64,000 nucleotides of DNA from Candidatus Latescibacterota bacterium (GTDB lineage Bacteria > Latescibacterota > UBA2968 > GCA-2709665): positions 4,288,001 to 4,352,000 of the forward strand of contig OZ241917.1 in assembly GCA_965203805.1 (NCBI GenBank), in the 5' to 3' direction. The notes under the pieces are model-generated. The model saw only the letters and a list, made by a program, of their open reading frames with translations, searched no databases and was not told the DNA's origin. Numbering within the stretch: the stretch's first letter is position 1; the number at the start of each line of letters is the position of its first letter. The translations under genes were made by a program, and so were the position numbers. Shown piece after piece: positions 59,804-64,000 of the stretch.

Positions 59804-60018
59804 TTTACGAATTCCTTTCGGTCCCTTCGACTTGAGAATCGCGTCCGGCAGCAAAGTAATCAGGAAAATGCGAAAATGGAAAAAGAAAAACAGCACGTTT
59901 CGTGTGCCGGATTCGGACTGTAAAACTTCGCGCCGGCCGCCCGAGCCTCCGTGAGCGATTAAGTGAAATCTCGATTTCCAGCTGCCAACAGGCACTCGTA
60001 TTGGCAATGATTTACGCG

Positions 60019-60086
60019 ACAATTTCCTGATAGGACTTGACAAATTGTACGAAATTGTGTAAGATTTTCTTACCACACGTAAGAAA
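60019..60086 (+). promoter_or_regulatory. Sigma70 promoter with overlapping operator-like palindromes
   Basis: TTGACA (60037-42), 17 bp, TAAGAT (60060-65). GTAAGA-ttt-TCTTAC (60059-73) and TTTCTTAC-cacac-GTAAGAAA (60066-86). AAATTGT twice at a 10-bp period plus an inverted copy at 60019. Confidence 0.78.
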
Positions 60087-60096
60087 GGAGAGTGCT

Positions 60097-60387
60097 ATGG
60101 AAAAGACAGAGGTCGTTCGCAAGGTCGTGGAGGTAATTGGAAATGTCCAGCAAGAGAGTGGTAGGACACCTCACGATATTACCGCAGGCACGTACATCTA
60201 CACGGATATCGACGGCTTCGACAGTTTGAACGGCGTTGAAGCTACGGTGATCCTGTCCGAAGGGTTGGGTGATGCCGAATTGCCGGACGATCTATTCCTC
60301 CCCGAAAAGGGCCATCGAGATATTTCGGTCGGTGAGATAGCAGACCGGGTTTGTGATCAACTAAACGTGGAGGCAAACGTCAGATGA
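60097..60387 (+). CDS. Acyl/aminoacyl carrier protein-like (phosphopantetheine attachment site)
   Basis: 96 aa, acidic, GFDSL with Ser at residue 43, and a C-terminal SVGEIADRV helix. AAAGGAG RBS. Confidence 0.72.
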   Translation: MEKTEVVRKVVEVIGNVQQESGRTPHDITAGTYIYTDIDGFDSLNGVEATVILSEGLGDAELPDDLFLPEKGHRDISVGEIADRVCDQLNVEANVR

Positions 60388-60734
60388 GCGATCAAGACCT
60401 GCTCCGTCGAAACATTGCTTCAAGGTTGCGGATGGCACGGGAGCTGGCAGGGCTCACACAAGGACAGGTGGCAAAACGCCTAAGGTATCACCGGCCGACT
60501 GTGTCCGAGATTGAGGCGGGCAGGCGCAGGGTAACAGCGGAGGAACTAACTATGTTCTGTGAACTATACGGAGTAAATGTGCACTGGATCACAGGAGAGG
60601 ATACGCAAGATACGGCAAGCTTTAAAGCTAAGCTCGCAGCCCGAGAGTTGGACAAGCTAAAGGATGAAGATCTTGATCGGCTGTTGCAACTCATTCAGTC
60701 ACTGAAGACTTCAGAGGATCCGTCGGATAAATGA
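60384..60734 (+). CDS. XRE/Cro-family HTH regulator
   Basis: RLRMARELAGLTQGQVA...TVSEIEAGRR. ATGA overlap with the upstream gene. Confidence 0.93.
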   Translation: MSDQDLLRRNIASRLRMARELAGLTQGQVAKRLRYHRPTVSEIEAGRRRVTAEELTMFCELYGVNVHWITGEDTQDTASFKAKLAARELDKLKDEDLDRLLQLIQSLKTSEDPSDK

Positions 60735-61588
60735 ACCGGAAAACTGTAGCTCGAAGGGCCATTTTTAAAGCACTGCAAATGCGTAAGCAAGCGGGTTACG
60801 GATTGGATTGCGCAATCTGTGTCTACGACTTAGCACAAAGACTCGGCGTTGAAGTGCGTTTTCTGGACCTCCCGAGTATGGAGGGCATGTATTACAATGT
60901 CCCACGGCCGCACATAGTCATTTCTTCATTGCGCCCCGTTGGCCGCCGCGCGTTTACGTGTGCTCACGAACTCGGCCATCATTGTTTTAACGACGGTACC
61001 CACATTGACGAACTTACTGAACAATTCAAGAGTCCCCGTCAAGATCCGCGTGAGTTTGCCGCCGATTGTTTCGCCGGTGCTCTTCTGATGCCCAAAATGG
61101 CAGTTGAGAAAGCGTTTGCTGTTCGCGGTTGGACTATCAGAGAGTGTACGCCGGAACAAACCTTCGCGGTTTCAAATTACTTTGGAGTTGGATACACGAC
61201 ATTGATCCATCACCTGCGGAGTGCTCTACATCTACTTTCCCACTATCGTGCCGAGGAACTCTTGAAAATACCGACACGCAGCGCACAAAACTTGGCGCTT
61301 GGCTGGGAGACGACAAAAACTGCTTGGATTGTCGACCGGAACTGGATAGGACGGCCAATCGACGTTGAAGAAGGTGATCTGATTCTCGTGCGGGGAAAGG
61401 TTTGTATTGAGGGGCGGAACTTAGAACACCTGGCAGATAAGCACGGGGGCAGAGTCCTCCGCGCCATACGCCCGGGCATCGCAAGGATTGAAGATAGTTC
61501 AGGTTGGTCGTCCTTTATACGAGTATCCAAGCGAGGATTCATCGGGCGCGCCATGTTTCGTCACGATGAGGAGTTCGGCGATGAATAG
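60731..61588 (+). CDS. ImmA/IrrE family Zn metallopeptidase
   Basis: RRAFTCAHELGH and REFAADCFAGALLMP. ATGA overlap with the HTH gene. Confidence 0.92.
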   Translation: MNRKTVARRAIFKALQMRKQAGYGLDCAICVYDLAQRLGVEVRFLDLPSMEGMYYNVPRPHIVISSLRPVGRRAFTCAHELGHHCFNDGTHIDELTEQFKSPRQDPREFAADCFAGALLMPKMAVEKAFAVRGWTIRECTPEQTFAVSNYFGVGYTTLIHHLRSALHLLSHYRAEELLKIPTRSAQNLALGWETTKTAWIVDRNWIGRPIDVEEGDLILVRGKVCIEGRNLEHLADKHGGRVLRAIRPGIARIEDSSGWSSFIRVSKRGFIGRAMFRHDEEFGDE

Positions 61589-62363
61589 TTACAATCCTAT
61601 AGAGGATCAGAACCTCTCGGTTGCGTGGGGGAAGGCGTTTTTGAAAGTGTTTCATGAAGGCGAAGTCGCGCCAATGACAGTCAAGATCAATGTGTTGGAT
61701 TGCCGAGAACCTGAAGAGATTCCGTCCATTCGAAGAAACCTTGATGCCAGCTTGAACAATCGTCGTGCAAAGCTCTCTTGCGACCAAGTCGCGAATACGA
61801 TTTTCCCTATCTCACTTTGGAACCCAAATGCAGACAGAAGACTACTGTACAAGAGGTACCGAAGAATCTGCCCTCGCATACTTCGCCACCGCAGCAATCG
61901 AAATGGAGTGTATTTCCAGCGTTTCATTGCCTATGGCGGCGGATCCTGCACCCAAGGCGGAGTAAACCAATTGGAGCATATCATCCAAACGTGGCACCGT
62001 GGGAACCACCGCAGGTCAGCCCTCCAGGCTGCAGTATTCGATCCATTGACCGACCACACGCACCAACGCCAGCGGGGTTTTCCTTGTCTTCAACAGGTAG
62101 CATTTGCAGGAAAAAACGGTGGCTTATCTGTTACCGGCTTCTACGCGACGCAATACATCTTTGAACGTGCCTATGGCAACTATCTTGGCCTATTTCGGCT
62201 GGGTCGATTTATGGCGCACGAGATGAAACTAAGGTTGGAGCAAGTCATATGCGTCGCATCTCCCGCCAAACTGTCCGGCGTACGGAAGCGGGATCTGTCG
62301 GCGCTTGCTGAGCAAGTTAAGGAAGCCCTCGAGCACTACGCGTACTCAGACGACTTCAGGTAG
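61581..62363 (+). CDS. Divergent thymidylate-synthase-fold protein
   Basis: NQLEHII..HRRS..FPCLQQV..GN. Aligns without gaps to the ThyA catalytic region (alignment from memory). The start overlaps the upstream stop. Confidence 0.78.
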   Translation: MNSYNPIEDQNLSVAWGKAFLKVFHEGEVAPMTVKINVLDCREPEEIPSIRRNLDASLNNRRAKLSCDQVANTIFPISLWNPNADRRLLYKRYRRICPRILRHRSNRNGVYFQRFIAYGGGSCTQGGVNQLEHIIQTWHRGNHRRSALQAAVFDPLTDHTHQRQRGFPCLQQVAFAGKNGGLSVTGFYATQYIFERAYGNYLGLFRLGRFMAHEMKLRLEQVICVASPAKLSGVRKRDLSALAEQVKEALEHYAYSDDFR

Positions 62364-62381
62364 AATAGGGGCGTCATTCTT

Positions 62382-64000
62382 ATGCAAACCGGACCTGCGC
62401 AACTGATAGTATTGGAAGGACCTGATGGTGTAGGTAAGTCGACGATTTCTTTCGCGCTCTACGAGAAGCTCTCCAACTCCTCTATTGAGTGTGAGTATTT
62501 TTCGTTTCCGGGCAAGGAAACCGGGACAATCGGACGTTTAGTGTACGACCTTCACCATGAACCGAGGATGTTCGGACTAGAACCACTAAGTCCCGCCAGT
62601 CTACAAACCCTACACATTGCGGCGCATTTGGATGTAATTGAGCAACGGATTCGGCCAGCCATTAACGACGGAAAGTGGGTCATACTGGATCGATTCTGGT
62701 GGTCAACTTGGGTCTACGGGCGTGCATCCGGGATGGACGGAAGTATGTTGGATGCGTTGATTGAGGCGGAGCGTATTCAATGGCAGGGTACCACGCCCCT
62801 AGCCCTCTTTCTCATTGATCGATCTCCGGATCTGTCTGGTCGCAATGATCAAGCCACAATCCGTATGGGGTATGACGAACTCTTCAAAAGAGAACAAAGC
62901 CAGTACCCCGTTTATAAGATTAAGAATGACGGCTCAGTGCAAGAAACGCTGAACGAAACATTGGGGATTTTGCGAGACGTCACAAGTCGGAAATCGGATT
63001 CTGATACGAAGCAGATAAACCCGGATTCAGAGAAAAAAGTGACTCAACTATCTATTCCACTTATTGGAGAGGCACCTTTTTCAGTCTTCACGAAACTATC
63101 CCCCGCCGTGCCGACTGTCGTTTATGACAGTCTCTGGCGGTTCGCTGTAGAACGGCAGGAAGTTTTTTTTCGTAAGATTGATGGACGTCCCTGTCCCTGG
63201 ACCGACGATGAGATCCTCCGTCGGCATAAGTTCACGAATGCCTATCGCGCTTCAGACCGCGTTAGCCAGTATCTAATTCAACACGTAATCTATGAGGGGG
63301 AAAAGACCCCAGAGGAGGTATTTTTTCGAACGATTCTCTTTAAGCTGTTTAACAAGATCGAGACTTGGAAACTGTTATCTACGAAATTAGGAACGGTCAG
63401 TTATGCCGATTTCTCGTTCTCCAGATACGATGAGATACTAGCAAGAGCACTCTCATCCGGCATTCGTATTTATTCGGCAGCGTATATTATGCCGTCAGGT
63501 AAGACATCGTTTGGCTATAAACTGAAACACCGCAATCATCTAACGCTTCTTAAACAAATGATGGAGGATGAGGTACCGCGCAAAATTGAAGACGCGCTAA
63601 ACATGCGACAGGCTTTTGAACTATTGCGCTCCTATTCTACAGTAGGCAGCTTTCTCGCTTATCAGTATGTAACAGACCTCAATTACAGTGCAATTACTGA
63701 CTTCTCAGAGATGGAGTTTGTTATACCTGGTCCAGGCGCGCTGGATGGCATTCACAAGTGTTTCGCCGACCGTGGCGGCCTTAATGAGAGGGACATTATT
63801 CGAGTAGTCACGGATCGACAAGAGCAGGAGTTTGAACGGTTGGGGCTACGATTTCGCTCTCTCTGGGGTAGGCGCCTGCAGCTGATAGATTGTCAGAATC
63901 TCTTCTGTGAAGTCTCCAAGTACTCTCGCCTGAAGCATCCCGAGATTCCAGGGATCAGTAAACGAACCCGAATAAAGCAAATATACCGTCCTTCCGATGA
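62382..64000 (+). CDS. dTMP-kinase domain fused to a 5-hmdU DNA kinase / aGPT-PPlase1-like helical domain, 3'-truncated
   Basis: Hand translation, open for at least 539 codons: MQTGPAQLIVLEGPDGVGKST...FPG...VILDRF (TMK), then ERQ...PWTDDEIL..HKFTNAYRASDR...FNKIETW...YSAAY...GSFLAYQ...GPGALDG...CQNLFCEVSKY. Confidence 0.85.
   Translation, partial: MQTGPAQLIVLEGPDGVGKSTISFALYEKLSNSSIECEYFSFPGKETGTIGRLVYDLHHEPRMFGLEPLSPASLQTLHIAAHLDVIEQRIRPAINDGKWVILDRFWWSTWVYGRASGMDGSMLDALIEAERIQWQGTTPLALFLIDRSPDLSGRNDQATIRMGYDELFKREQSQYPVYKIKNDGSVQETLNETLGILRDVTSRKSDSDTKQINPDSEKKVTQLSIPLIGEAPFSVFTKLSPAVPTVVYDSLWRFAVERQEVFFRKIDGRPCPWTDDEILRRHKFTNAYRASDRVSQYLIQHVIYEGEKTPEEVFFRTILFKLFNKIETWKLLSTKLGTVSYADFSFSRYDEILARALSSGIRIYSAAYIMPSGKTSFGYKLKHRNHLTLLKQMMEDEVPRKIEDALNMRQAFELLRSYSTVGSFLAYQYVTDLNYSAITDFSEMEFVIPGPGALDGIHKCFADRGGLNERDIIRVVTDRQEQEFERLGLRFRSLWGRRLQLIDCQNLFCEVSKYSRLKHPEIPGISKRTRIKQIYRPSD

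What the first reader, a model, noticed from the sequence alone, without database searches (positions are those of the whole stretch)
60019..64000. Candidate new nucleotide/DNA-modification or anti-phage operon: ACP - XRE HTH - ImmA/IrrE peptidase - TS-like - TMK/5-hmdU-DNA-kinase fusion
Seen in sequence: five co-oriented genes with ATGA/ATGA/8-bp overlaps and an 18-bp gap, a dedicated promoter, and AT-richer composition than the host. Established: TS-fold hydroxymethylases, nucleotide kinases and 5-hmdU DNA kinases form the core of phage thymidine hypermodification, and HTH plus IrrE-like peptidase pairs (ImmR/ImmA, DdrO/IrrE, CapH/CapP) act as damage- or phage-inducible switches. Inference: this is an inducible bacterial system that either makes a modified pyrimidine and installs it in DNA, or attacks 5-hmU-containing phage DNA or nucleotide pools. 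I know of no described system with a carrier protein as the first gene of such an operon.
Basis: partly seen in the sequence, partly recalled or inferred. Interest (0 to 1): 0.92.

Follow-up and report, generated by a model that had tools for sequence, protein, structure and literature searches.

The report
Inducible carrier-protein pyrimidine-modification defence operon
A horizontally acquired six-gene operon at the edge of a defence island joins a repressor/protease switch to enzymes resembling those phages use to hypermodify thymine, plus an unexpected carrier protein predicted to dock on a thymidylate-synthase-like enzyme.

Summary
All five genes, their overlaps, the 18-bp gap, the promoter and the low G+C are there. 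The operon has a sixth gene beyond the window end, a MilA-like pyrimidine hydroxymethylase. The gene order is conserved: 49 of 80 related loci from many phyla carry the cassette ACP, XRE repressor, M78 peptidase and divergent TS-fold enzyme upstream of a HMUDK_hel gene. These loci share a promoter and a palindromic operator, GTAAGA-N3-TCTTAC, that overlaps the -10 box. The carrier has an invariant phosphopantetheine serine. Sixteen of the 80 loci add a dedicated PPTase. The carrier is predicted to dock on the TS-fold enzyme (ipSAE 0.79, best control 0.02). Gene 5 has the two-domain architecture of the phage SP10 5-hmdU DNA kinase. None of 40 relatives has the locus, and it adjoins Hma-like, ABC-3C and other defence genes. 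The core domains (TS, dNMP kinase, 5-hmdU kinase) match an E. coli system shown to protect against phage (DefensePredictor, 2026); its mechanism is unknown. So this is a new variant of a known kind. My best reading is a derepressible defence system that makes 5-hydroxymethyl-pyrimidine nucleotides and phosphorylates hmU in replicating DNA. The carrier-dependent step has no description in the papers I could search.

The parts
60037..60065 (+). Sigma-70-type promoter: -35 TTGACA (60037-60042), 17-nt spacer, -10 TAAGAT (60060-65)
   Evidence: (10 of 12 matches) and the sequence. TTGACA/TTGAC followed by GTAAGAT recurs at the same place upstream of the ACP gene in the relatives printed.
60059..60073 (.). 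Operator palindrome GTAAGA-TTT-TCTTAC overlapping the -10 box, the presumed binding site of the g2 repressor. A further GTAAGA (60079-60084) runs into the Shine-Dalgarno AAGGAG (60085-60090).
   Evidence: Sequence. The strict pattern TAAGA-N2-6-TCTTA lies upstream of the ACP gene in 31 of 50 cassette loci, and these 31 are the only matches in 1,280,803 nt of locus DNA. A relaxed pattern is found in 36 of 50, and the other 14 show imperfect copies at the same position by eye. Binding by g2 is inferred.
60097..60387 (+). g1: 96-aa acyl-carrier-protein-like carrier; Ser43 in GFDS is the predicted phosphopantetheine site
   Evidence: Ser43 is the only invariant column in 21 homologues. In the profile search against PDB, all 60 listed hits are ACPs, best 2.4e-6, with Ser43 aligned to the DSL serine. 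A dedicated ACPS-type PPTase lies in 16 of 80 related loci, 15 of them with the ACP.
60384..60734 (+). g2: 116-aa XRE-family HTH repressor (CapH/ImmR-like)
   Evidence: HTH_31 6.1e-16 and HTH_3 6.6e-13; PADLOC capH 2.7e-11. ATGA overlap with g1 and with g3.
60731..61588 (+). g3: 285-aa M78 (ImmA/IrrE/CapP-like) zinc peptidase with HELGH motif, plus a C-terminal region of about 120 aa with no family match
   Evidence: Peptidase_M78 3.4e-22, residues 35-162; capP 4.4e-18; IrrE 3dte 4.6e-4. HELGH is read from the translation.
61581..62363 (+). g4: 260-aa divergent thymidylate-synthase-fold enzyme. It has an invariant FPC (Cys169) and YGN (Asn200) but lacks the R-S-x-D phosphate-binding motif. It is the predicted docking partner of g1.
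   Evidence: TIGR03283 8.7e-12. AF2 pLDDT 91.6. Foldseek best hits are MilA and TS, E 2.9e-9, TMq 0.62-0.64. Invariant residues. Complex with g1: ipSAE 0.79 against a best control of 0.02. The family has 1,737 representatives at E<=0.001.
62382..64000 (+). g5: 563-aa fusion that runs on to 64073, 73 nt beyond the window. Residues 1-208 are a thymidylate-kinase-fold P-loop domain, 209-238 a disordered linker, and 239-563 a HMUDK_hel domain. The sixth gene, g6, lies wholly beyond the window end. It occupies extrapolated window coordinates 64070-65068 (L001:4070-5068, + strand), with a GTGA overlap with the g5 stop. g6 is a 332-aa MilA-like pyrimidine-nucleotide C5 hydroxymethylase/methylase with the full TS catalytic set and Asn at the base-specifying position.
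   Evidence: g5: Pfam. Full length. AF2 pLDDT 86. The N-domain matches Aquifex TMK, TMt 0.84. The whole protein matches the SP10 5-hmdU DNA kinase, E 1.6e-16 over 647 columns. g6: start and overlap. Thymidylat_synt 1.5e-22. Profile against PDB: CMP 5-hydroxymethylase MilA 6.7e-35, best TS 1.3e-17. Invariant PC, RSND, G.P, S.H.Y and nearly invariant Asn.

Best explanation
This is a horizontally acquired, self-contained anti-phage (conflict) operon. It belongs to the class that reuses the phage thymidine-hypermodification enzyme set.

Off state (inferred): the XRE repressor g2 sits on the palindrome GTAAGA-N3-TCTTAC, which overlaps the -10 box, and keeps the operon silent.

Switch (inferred by analogy with ImmA/ImmR, IrrE/DdrO and CapP/CapH): an infection or DNA-damage cue activates the M78 peptidase g3. 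g3 cleaves g2 and all six genes are expressed.

Effector chemistry (inferred from homology):
1. g6, a MilA-like TS-family enzyme with an Asn that specifies uracil, makes a 5-hydroxymethyl (or 5-substituted) (d)UMP.
2. The TMK-fold domain of g5 phosphorylates it towards the triphosphate, so that it enters replicating DNA, which during infection is mostly phage DNA.
3. g5 as a whole has the two-domain architecture of the SP10 5-hmdU DNA kinase. It phosphorylates 5-hmU in DNA and leaves a charged, reactive base that hampers transcription, replication or packaging.
4. The carrier g1, in holo form, docks on the second TS-fold enzyme g4 and supplies a carrier-dependent step whose chemistry is unknown.

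Shown here: gene identities, folds, conserved order, conserved promoter/operator, accessory status and defence-island context.
Modelled only: g1-g4 binding.
Not shown: any activity, the trigger, and the phage phenotype of this variant.
For: 1. Gene identities and folds.
2. Conserved order: 160 relatives of g5 were confirmed in the species-representative genomes and the best 80 were examined. Of these 80, 49 have ACP+HTH+M78+g4 upstream of HMUDK_hel. Among the 49, 20 have the window's arrangement (fused TMK, then g6) and 3 have a split TMK followed by g6.
3. Regulation: the palindrome overlapping the -10 box is conserved upstream of the ACP gene (31 of 50 strict, 36 of 50 relaxed). All 31 strict matches in 1.28 Mb of locus DNA are these sites.
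4. Accessory and defensive context:
- 0 of 40 relatives (14 of the same genus) have PF18723.
- G+C is 0.45-0.57 over about 60-85 kb against about 0.62 in the host.
- The neighbours match HmaA/B/C, PDC-M68A/B (ABC-3C), PDC-M34A and a PD-Lambda-5_B-like methylase.
5. Experimental precedent: an E. coli unit with TS, dNMP-kinase, 5-hmdU-kinase and NMAD domains protected against phage (PMC13092281, sections 5 and 8 and figure legends).
6. Pathway logic in relatives: a dCTP-deaminase-like gene occurs in 22 of 80 loci and MazG+MazG_C in 31 of 80. This parallels phage hmU pathways: phage M6 has kinase, HMUDK_hel, Nmad5, TS and HD genes together, and the ViI-like phage May has an annotated NTP pyrophosphohydrolase-superfamily gene (no Pfam hit) next to HMUDK_hel.
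7. Phage 5-HMUDKs phosphorylate 5-hmdU in DNA (PMC8989533, passages). According to an abstract seen only in a search listing, enzymatic phosphorylation of 5hmU in a template turns bacterial transcription off in vitro (PMC6457204).
8. Carrier role: invariant Ser43; the ACP is never found without g4 (0 of 49 ACP loci); g1-g4 model ipSAE 0.79 in three runs (0.79, 0.80, 0.79), best of 3 controls 0.02, partner pLDDT 88. That mark was reached by 58 of 80 solved complexes and 2 of 110 mismatched pairs. The contacts include ACP 40-45 and g4 68-103.
Against: - No activity, trigger or phenotype was measured.
- The validated E. coli system carries an NMAD domain. The window's genome has no Nmad2, and homology to the E. 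coli genes could not be tested directly: DNA searches found nothing and the supplements are closed.
- The P-loop domain of g5 is TMK-type (PF02223), not the PF18748 type of the characterised M6 kinase.
- The HMUDK_hel protein of M6 (gp55) was dispensable for the in vitro reaction (PMC8989533), so the role of this domain is unproven.
- No amino-acid:DNA transferase (PF18724) is in the locus.
- g6 is closest to a ribonucleotide enzyme (MilA, CMP), so the product could be a ribonucleotide or a free metabolite rather than a DNA precursor.
- The 80 loci are the best 80 of 160 by similarity to g5 and are not an unbiased sample.
- The own locus and genome have no PPTase of the operon-linked family.
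Confidence: 0.55

Rival explanations
1. Inducible synthesis of a soluble antimetabolite rather than DNA modification. The TS-family enzymes and the kinase would make a modified pyrimidine nucleotide, nucleoside or base. This product would inhibit or mis-feed phage polymerases or nucleotide metabolism, as in nucleoside-antibiotic pathways that begin with MilA, or as with viperin-type chain terminators. The HMUDK_hel domain would bind the free nucleotide.
For: The best solved relative of g6 is the CMP hydroxymethylase MilA of mildiomycin biosynthesis (6.7e-35 against 1.3e-17 for TS). MilA is also the best fold match of g4. Relatives add MazG, MazG_C and dCTP-deaminase-like nucleotide-pool enzymes. 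A carrier protein is typical of small-molecule biosynthesis. M6 gp55 (HMUDK_hel) was not needed for the DNA reaction in vitro.
Against: g5 matches the SP10 5-hmdU DNA kinase over both domains, and the characterised members of that group act on DNA. No loading enzyme (adenylation domain or ligase) for the carrier was seen in the operon or among the recurrent neighbour families that I scanned. No exporter or self-resistance gene is present.
Confidence: 0.2
2. A protective self-modification module of a mobile element. The operon would hypermodify thymine or uracil in the element's or host's own DNA to escape restriction, for example during transfer, as phages do.
For: Every enzyme has homologues in phage hypermodification clusters. 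HMUDK_hel is found on 22 plasmid records, 6 of them typed conjugative, and one product is named 'putative DNA base hypermodification protein'. The identical operon lies on a conjugative cyanobacterial plasmid. HTH/M78 switches are common on mobile elements (recalled: ImmR/ImmA of ICEBs1).
Against: There is no transferase (PF18724), no dedicated polymerase and no dTTP-exclusion gene in the window's locus. The locus sits in a chromosomal defence island next to methylase-based systems. Tight repression is odd for a protective mark that must be present before attack. A unit with the same core domains protected E. coli against phage from a plasmid. Only 3 confirmed g4 relatives were found in 2.9 million viral contigs.
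Confidence: 0.12
3. A restriction-like attack aimed only at phages whose DNA already contains 5-hmU. g5 would phosphorylate the invader's hmU and the other enzymes would be accessory.
For: The g5 architecture equals that of a 5-hmdU DNA kinase. Phosphorylated hmU blocks transcription in vitro (abstract in the listing).
Against: Two TS-family enzymes that can make the hydroxymethyl substrate are kept in the operon. The family is very abundant: 7,509 of 8,000 scored candidates had E<=1e-10. It occurs in many phyla, which is hard to reconcile with a target as rare as hmU phages. That hmU phages are rare is my recollection.
Confidence: 0.05

Closest known systems
DefensePredictor-validated E. coli system with TS, dNMP kinase, 5-hmdU DNA kinase and NMAD domains (DeWeirdt, Mahoney and Laub, Science 2026, PMC13092281). 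The DS number is not stated in the text I could read.
   Same: Same core domain set as g6 (TS) and g5 (dNMP kinase plus 5-hmdU-kinase helical domain). Among the 80 relatives, 24 loci without the cassette show g5/g6-type genes next to ThsB-TIR-like and Nmad2 genes. This fits that domain list.
   Different: The window has no Nmad2 or TIR-like gene in the operon, and no Nmad2 anywhere in the genome. It has instead the ACP-HTH-M78-TS-like cassette. Direct sequence comparison was not possible (supplements closed). The mechanism of the E. coli system is not given in the paper.
Phage thymidine hypermodification clusters (M6, ViI, SP10, PhiW-14; Lee et al. 2018 and 2021, PMC5889632 and PMC8989533)
   Same: They share a TS-family dUMP hydroxymethylase, P-loop kinase, HMUDK_hel protein, MazG or HD nucleotide-pool enzymes and rSAM. 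The SP10 kinase is a kinase+HMUDK_hel fusion like g5. M6 has kinase, HMUDK_hel, Nmad5, TS and HD genes together.
   Different: Identity to phage HMUDK_hel is below 60% in all 491 matching phage records and 24-34% in the three I aligned. The locus has no amino-acid:DNA transferase (PF18724) and no PLP enzyme. It is bacterial and chromosomal, repressor-controlled, has a carrier protein, and its kinase domain is TMK-type rather than PF18748.
HTH/M78 peptidase switches: CapH/CapP of CBASS, ImmR/ImmA of ICEBs1, DdrO/IrrE of Deinococcus
   Same: An XRE HTH gene overlaps an M78 HExxH peptidase gene at the head of the regulated operon. PADLOC capH 2.7e-11 and capP 4.4e-18; IrrE 4.6e-4. A palindromic operator overlaps the promoter.
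   Different: The pair is preceded by a carrier-protein gene and followed by a TS-fold gene, in a fixed four-gene cassette (49 of 80 loci). The controlled effectors are nucleotide enzymes, not CBASS. Cleavage and trigger are untested.
MilA CMP 5-hydroxymethylase (mildiomycin pathway; PDB 5b6d, 5jnh)
   Same: It is the best solved relative of g6 by sequence profile (6.7e-35) and of g4 by fold (E 2.9e-9, TMq 0.62-0.64).
   Different: At the base-specifying position g6 has Asn, where MilA has Asp in the alignment. That this position sets uracil against cytosine is recalled TS-family knowledge. g4 lacks the R-S-x-D motif altogether. There is no natural-product cluster around the genes.

Membership tests
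HTH/M78 (CapH/CapP, ImmR/ImmA, DdrO/IrrE-type) derepression switch | XRE-type HTH repressor | tested here: met
   HTH_31 6.1e-16, HTH_3 6.6e-13; capH 2.7e-11
HTH/M78 (CapH/CapP, ImmR/ImmA, DdrO/IrrE-type) derepression switch | Adjacent M78 metallopeptidase with HExxH | tested here: met
   Peptidase_M78 3.4e-22; capP 4.4e-18; HELGH in the translation; 4-bp overlap with g2
HTH/M78 (CapH/CapP, ImmR/ImmA, DdrO/IrrE-type) derepression switch | Operator at the regulated promoter | tested here: met
   The palindrome 60059-60073 overlaps the -10 box. It is conserved in 31 of 50 (strict) and 36 of 50 (relaxed) cassette loci. Binding itself was not tested.
HTH/M78 (CapH/CapP, ImmR/ImmA, DdrO/IrrE-type) derepression switch | Signal-dependent cleavage of the repressor by the peptidase | not testable with these tools
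   Needs biochemistry
5-hmdU DNA kinase (SP10 gp186 type) | P-loop kinase domain fused to HMUDK_hel (PF18723) | tested here: met
   PF18723 3.7e-110 plus a P-loop domain; Foldseek to the SP10 5-hmdU DNA kinase, E 1.6e-16 over 647 columns
5-hmdU DNA kinase (SP10 gp186 type) | Kinase domain of the HMUDK_HMUD1 (PF18748) family, as in the characterised M6 gp54 | tested here: not met
   PF18748 is not among the g5 matches at E<=0.1. The domain is PF02223 TMK-type with a TMK fold, TMt 0.84. M6 gp54 does match PF18748.
5-hmdU DNA kinase (SP10 gp186 type) | ATP-dependent phosphorylation of 5-hmdU in DNA | not testable with these tools
   Activity assay needed
Thymidylate synthase / pyrimidine hydroxymethylase superfamily (g6) | Catalytic Cys in P-C, R-S-x-D, G-x-P-x-N, D/S-x-H-x-Y motifs | tested here: met
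   Invariant P155 C156, R176 S177 N178 D179, G183 P185, nearly invariant N187, and S215 H217 Y219 in 24 homologues; PF00303 1.5e-22
Thymidylate synthase / pyrimidine hydroxymethylase superfamily (g4) | TS fold with catalytic Cys | tested here: met
   pLDDT 91.6; Foldseek to MilA/TS, E 2.9e-9; invariant F-P-C169
Thymidylate synthase / pyrimidine hydroxymethylase superfamily (g4) | Phosphate-binding R-S-x-D motif after the catalytic strand | tested here: not met
   The A2 consensus reads FYATQY.FERAYGNY at that place, with no R-S-x-D. The profile finds no PDB sequence. It finds only 1,737 representatives in 1.84 billion proteins, so the g4 family is separate from canonical TS.
Acyl/peptidyl carrier protein (g1) | Small helical protein with a conserved Ser in a D-S-L-type motif | tested here: met
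   Ser43 is invariant in 21 sequences. It aligns to the DSL serine of ACPs, and all 60 listed PDB hits are ACPs.
Acyl/peptidyl carrier protein (g1) | Phosphopantetheinylation by a PPTase | tested here: inconclusive
   An ACPS-family PPTase (PF01648 1.3e-15) lies in 16 of 80 related loci, 15 with the ACP. None of that operon-linked family is found in the window's genome by tblastn. A housekeeping PPTase was not sought.
DefensePredictor TS/dNMPk/5hmdUk/NMAD defence system | TS, dNMP-kinase and 5-hmdU-kinase domains in one unit | tested here: met
   g6 and g5
DefensePredictor TS/dNMPk/5hmdUk/NMAD defence system | NMAD (nucleotide-modification associated) domain | tested here: not met
   PF18753 has no match in the own genome. 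tblastn with 29 Nmad2 neighbours gave none.
DefensePredictor TS/dNMPk/5hmdUk/NMAD defence system | Sequence homology to the validated E. coli genes | tested here: inconclusive
   blastn of g5+g6 and of a low-GC homologue against 5,426 E. coli genomes gave no match.
Phage thymidine hypermodification pathway | Amino-acid:DNA transferase (PF18724, aGPT-Pplase clade 2) | tested here: not met
   No PF18724 match in g1-g6. hhalign of the HMUDK_hel profile against M6 gp51 gave probability 0.14%.

The most novel reading that the evidence does not exclude
The carrier protein would be a working part of a thymidylate-synthase-fold enzyme, which would be unprecedented. Holo-g1 docks with its phosphopantetheine serine against the g4 helix-loop-helix 68-103. 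A weak profile alignment places this region where canonical TS builds the folate-site wall. The arm would either deliver the one-carbon unit or trap the C5-methylene pyrimidine intermediate as a thioether. After g5 phosphorylates hmU in DNA, the carrier-borne group, or the carrier protein itself, would be transferred to the base. The system would then be a carrier-protein-dependent DNA hypermodification (or DNA-protein crosslinking) weapon, switched on by a protease-controlled repressor.
Probability: 0.15. Interest if true: 0.92.

Novelty: new variant of a known kind. Interest (0 to 1): 0.74.

Why it matters
Bacteria appear to have taken over the enzyme set that phages use to disguise their thymine and put it under an infection- or damage-responsive switch. 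One relative is already known to protect E. coli, but nobody knows how. The variant here is the commonest among the loci examined (49 of 80). It brings a conserved operator, a repressor/protease pair and a carrier protein with its own PPTase, so each step can be tested directly. If the carrier really feeds a TS-fold enzyme, that is new enzymology for one of the best-studied enzyme folds. If hmU or phospho-hmU is forced into replicating DNA, it is a new mode of immunity and a possible tool for site-selective DNA functionalisation.

Tried and rejected
1. An operator I first read by eye (ACAATTT / AAATTGT, 60020-60060) is not conserved. All three copies occur only in the window, and a single copy occurs in one other of 50 loci. 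I rejected it in favour of the GTAAGA palindrome. The repeat finder with a minimum length of 10 found no inverted repeat because the arms are only 6 nt.

2. g4 against g6 by hhalign gave probability 1.8%, E 0.028. This is not significant, although it aligns the two P-C motifs. The fold search settled the fold instead.

3. The g4 profile against PDB sequences found nothing at E<=1.

4. The HMUDK_hel profile against PDB sequences gave only chance-level aquaporin matches, E 0.44-1. Foldseek of the whole g5 model against PDB listed only thymidylate kinases. So the fold class of the helical domain relative to solved structures remains open.

5. The Atlas lead that HMUDK_hel is akin to amino-acid:DNA transferases was not borne out by hhalign against M6 gp51. 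The BFVD hit named 'Pplase1' is probably the same family under an older name. That PF18723 was formerly called aGPT-Pplase clade 1 is my recollection.

6. The E. coli counterpart was not found at DNA level.

7. The own genome has no Nmad2, MazG_C, dCTP-deaminase-like or operon-type PPTase gene.

8. Prophage origin: there is no tRNA in 40 kb and the neighbours are defence genes. Only 3 confirmed g4 relatives were found in IMG/VR. I did not scan the island with PHROGs or look for an integrase.

9. The ThsB_TIR-like neighbours in relatives are TIR-type by sequence (8fz9, 1.1e-5), not MilB-like.

10. Papers by Iyer et al. 2013 and Burroughs et al. 2015, which I recall as the source of these Pfam families and of defence predictions, are not held. 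What they say about bacterial versions or a carrier protein could not be checked. The supplementary tables of PMC13092281 (sequences and domains of validated and predicted units) are closed and may show this cassette. Its Fig. 6F legend lists aGPT-Pplase, HTH and NMAD, and the section 8 text adds MazG, MazG-C and dUTPase, among domains of systems that were predicted but not validated.

Full report
OBSERVATION. All lie on the + strand, with 4-, 4- and 8-bp overlaps and an 18-bp gap.
- g2 is an XRE HTH protein.
- g3 is an M78 ImmA/IrrE-type peptidase.
- g5 is a thymidylate-kinase-like domain fused to HMUDK_hel (PF18723, 3.7e-110).
- g1 and g4 have no Pfam match, but both assignments hold up (see Components).
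G+C drops from about 0.62 to about 0.50 at 60000. A TTGACA-17-TAAGAT promoter and an AAGGAG ribosome site precede the ATG at 60097. The window cuts the operon. In the genome, g5 ends at 64073 (563 aa). A sixth gene follows with a GTGA overlap (64070-65068).

COMPONENTS.

g1. Ser43 in a GFDS motif is the only invariant column among 21 homologues. A profile of these sequences finds only acyl carrier proteins among its 60 listed PDB matches (best 2.4e-6), with Ser43 on the phosphopantetheine serine.

g4. It scores 8.7e-12 against the archaeal TS model TIGR03283. It folds with pLDDT 91.6. It matches MilA and thymidylate synthases at E 2.9e-9, TMq 0.62-0.64. Its family keeps F-P-Cys169 and Y-G-Asn200 but has no R-S-x-D motif. 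It finds no PDB sequence. It has 1,737 representatives at E<=0.001 in 1.84 billion proteins. So it is a separate branch of the fold.

g6. It keeps the full TS catalytic set and matches PF00303 at 1.5e-22. Its profile is much closer to the CMP hydroxymethylase MilA (6.7e-35) than to any TS (1.3e-17). It has Asn where MilA has Asp. From recalled TS-family knowledge, this points to a uracil nucleotide.

g5. The model (pLDDT 86) has two domains joined by a disordered linker, residues 209-238. The first domain is a TMK fold (TMt 0.84). The whole protein aligns over both domains with the phage SP10 5-hmdU DNA kinase (E 1.6e-16). The C-domain has dozens of invariant residues, as expected of an enzyme or a specific nucleic-acid binder.

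In phage M6 the characterised kinase gp54 (PF18748) is followed by a separate HMUDK_hel protein, then by Nmad5, TS and HD genes. The published in vitro reconstitution did not need that protein (PMC8989533). The function of the domain is therefore not established.

CONSERVATION AND ARCHITECTURE. Scanning one genome per species gave 160 confirmed relatives of g5, and the best 80 loci were kept. These 80 are biased towards close relatives of g5.
- 49 of 80 loci have ACP, HTH, M78 and g4 in that order, directly upstream of HMUDK_hel.
- ACP never occurs without g4 (0 of 49).
- g4 occurs without ACP in 6 loci, three of them cut by contig ends.
Downstream of the cassette come:
- fused TMK then g6, the window's arrangement: 20 loci
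- split TMK then g6: 3
- no TMK, then MazG+MazG_C: 12
- fused TMK, then MazG+MazG_C: 7
- radical SAM: 2
- dCTP-deaminase-like: 3
- a PPTase: 2
An ACPS-type PPTase (PF01648 1.3e-15) is present in 16 of 80 loci, 15 of them with the ACP. A second architecture, in 24 of 80 loci, lacks the cassette. It has ThsB-TIR-like and Nmad2 genes beside the HMUDK_hel gene, usually with g6 as well, and in ten loci a divergent HTH-M78 fusion on the other strand. Five loci combine both architectures. The hosts span Chloroflexota, Thermodesulfobacteriota, Cyanobacteria, Acidobacteriota, Planctomycetota, Verrucomicrobiota, Armatimonadota, Pseudomonadota and others (record titles). The large protein database holds at least 7,509 clusters with E<=1e-10 to g5. 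RefSeq already names each gene of an identical operon on a conjugative Allocoleopsis plasmid.

REGULATION. A k-mer census of the 50 upstream regions brought out GGTAAGA and ATCTTAC, each in 42 of 50. They form a palindrome, GTAAGA-N3-TCTTAC, whose left arm contains the -10 hexamer. A -35 TTGACA lies 17 nt upstream.
- The strict pattern is upstream of the ACP gene in 31 of 50 loci. It occurs nowhere else in 1.28 Mb of locus DNA (31 matches in all). It occurs three times in the 5.87-Mb genome, once at 60060.
- The relaxed pattern is found in 36 of 50. The other 14 show one- or two-base variants at the same position.
The cassette thus travels with its own promoter and operator. Repression by g2 and relief through cleavage by g3 are inferred from the ImmR/ImmA, DdrO/IrrE and CapH/CapP precedents. 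They are not shown.

CONTEXT.
- None of 40 relatives (14 of the same genus, 7 of the same family, 19 of the same order) has PF18723.
- The low-GC tract runs to about 85 kb in window coordinates. It has no tRNA.
- The tract holds a DUF5343/PDC-M34A and DUF4145 pair, an IS-type transposase, an Hma-like helicase-methylase-ATPase set split by an ABC-3C/PDC-M68 pair, and a PD-Lambda-5_B-like methylase.
- In viral contigs only 3 g4 relatives were confirmed (56 pattern matches), each with the cassette.
The locus is an accessory defence-island gene set, not a prophage module.

THE CARRIER. Strict co-occurrence with g4 and the frequent dedicated PPTase argue that holo-g1 works with g4. A complex model supports this. 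The ipSAE was 0.79 (runs 0.79, 0.80, 0.79), the best of three controls was 0.02, and partner pLDDT was 88. All contacts were shared between runs. That mark was reached by 58 of 80 solved complexes and 2 of 110 mismatched pairs, though these counts hold only roughly because my own alignments were used. The interface uses ACP residues 20-22, 40-45 (the Ser43 motif), 47-48, 50-51 and 64. On g4 it uses residues 68-103, including the invariant F75, P76 and the nearly invariant W80. I know of no solved ACP-TS complex, so a pass from memory is unlikely. It remains a model. The weak g4/g6 alignment places this g4 segment at the helix that in canonical TS lines the cofactor side of the active site. That last step is inference.

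WHAT IS KNOWN. DefensePredictor validated 42 E. coli units. Among the domains newly validated in defence were a 5-hydroxymethyluracil kinase and a thymidylate synthase. The Fig. 3 legend lists TS, dNMPk, 5hmdUk and NMAD. No mechanism or mutants are reported for that unit (sections 5, 7, 8 and 9 and the legends read; preprint passages). The same paper highlights units that were predicted but not validated, with aGPT-Pplase, MazG, MazG-C, dUTPase and NMAD domains, and cites Burroughs et al. 2015 for earlier predictions. Phage 5-HMUDKs phosphorylate 5-hmdU in DNA (PMC8989533). Searches for a carrier protein in this setting found nothing relevant. Searches on the domain names found only the papers above.

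MECHANISM. I commit to a derepressible defence system. g6 makes a 5-hydroxymethyl-uracil nucleotide. The TMK domain moves it towards the triphosphate. g5 phosphorylates hmU once it is in replicating DNA. The g1-g4 pair adds a carrier-dependent step. Confidence is 0.55. The rivals are a soluble antimetabolite (0.2), self-protective modification of a mobile element (0.12) and attack on hmU phages only (0.05). The points against the main model are the missing NMAD, the TMK-type kinase domain, the dispensability of M6 gp55, the ribonucleotide specificity of g6's closest solved relative, and the absence of any measurement. All are listed in the Against line.

VERDICT. The feature is real and strongly conserved. 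It is a new variant of a kind that has one validated member and no known mechanism. The four-gene cassette with its operator and the predicted carrier/TS-fold pair are the new and testable parts.

Noticed in passing
L001:9411-17411 and L002:2-2794 (beyond the window end; extrapolated window 69411-77411 and 80002-82794), - strand: There is an Hma-like set: a PLD+SNF2 helicase (HmaA/BrxH/DrmD-like), a DUF1156 methylase (HmaB) and a DUF499 ATPase (HmaC, 3.4e-99). It appears split by an inserted ABC-3C pair (DUF2326/PDC-M68B 1e-160, and PDC-M68A).
   Followed up: partly
L001:5212-6368 (extrapolated window 65212-66368), - strand: A DUF4145 and DUF5343 (PDC-M34A 4.8e-36) gene pair lies immediately downstream of the operon. 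Its G+C is 0.38-0.40, much lower than even the rest of the island.
   Followed up: partly
L001:6663-8189 (extrapolated window 66663-68189), + strand: A 508-aa transposase-like ORF (DUF772, 1.3e-9) lies between the operon and the Hma-like set. It may mark a junction between separately acquired blocks.
   Followed up: no
G000:C1:2951182-2952347 (L091:4245-5350): A pair made of an unnamed 165-aa family ('fam10') and a ThsB-TIR-like gene is embedded in a type I R-M operon, between HsdM and HsdS, 1.34 Mb from the window. The pair is 61% and 55% identical to the genes that flank g5/g6 in other genomes. It is therefore a module that can stand apart from the kinase and TS genes.
   Followed up: partly
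L083:2991-5146 (Klebsiella phage May) and L087:11686-15674 (Pseudomonas phage M6): In the ViI-like phage, a gene annotated as NTP pyrophosphohydrolase superfamily (no Pfam hit) directly precedes a 405-aa HMUDK_hel protein. This may mirror the bacterial HMUDK_hel/MazG-MazG_C pair. M6 has kinase (PF18748), HMUDK_hel, Nmad5, TS and HD genes in a row. The phage HMUDK_hel proteins have no assigned function.
   Followed up: partly
L084:822-4837 (Brevibacterium phage LuckyBarnes): A 517-aa TS-family protein, two annotated glucosyltransferases and a 284-aa HMUDK_hel-only protein lie in a row. This is the best phage match to the g5 C-domain (34% identity), in a cluster that looks like base glycosylation rather than amino-acid transfer.
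   Followed up: no
L015:7086-9600; P0083, P0091 (846 aa): Some relatives encode a single protein of about 846 aa that matches both the g4 and the g5 profiles (a g4-g5 fusion). This is a further hint that the TS-fold enzyme and the kinase/HMUDK_hel protein act together.
   Followed up: no
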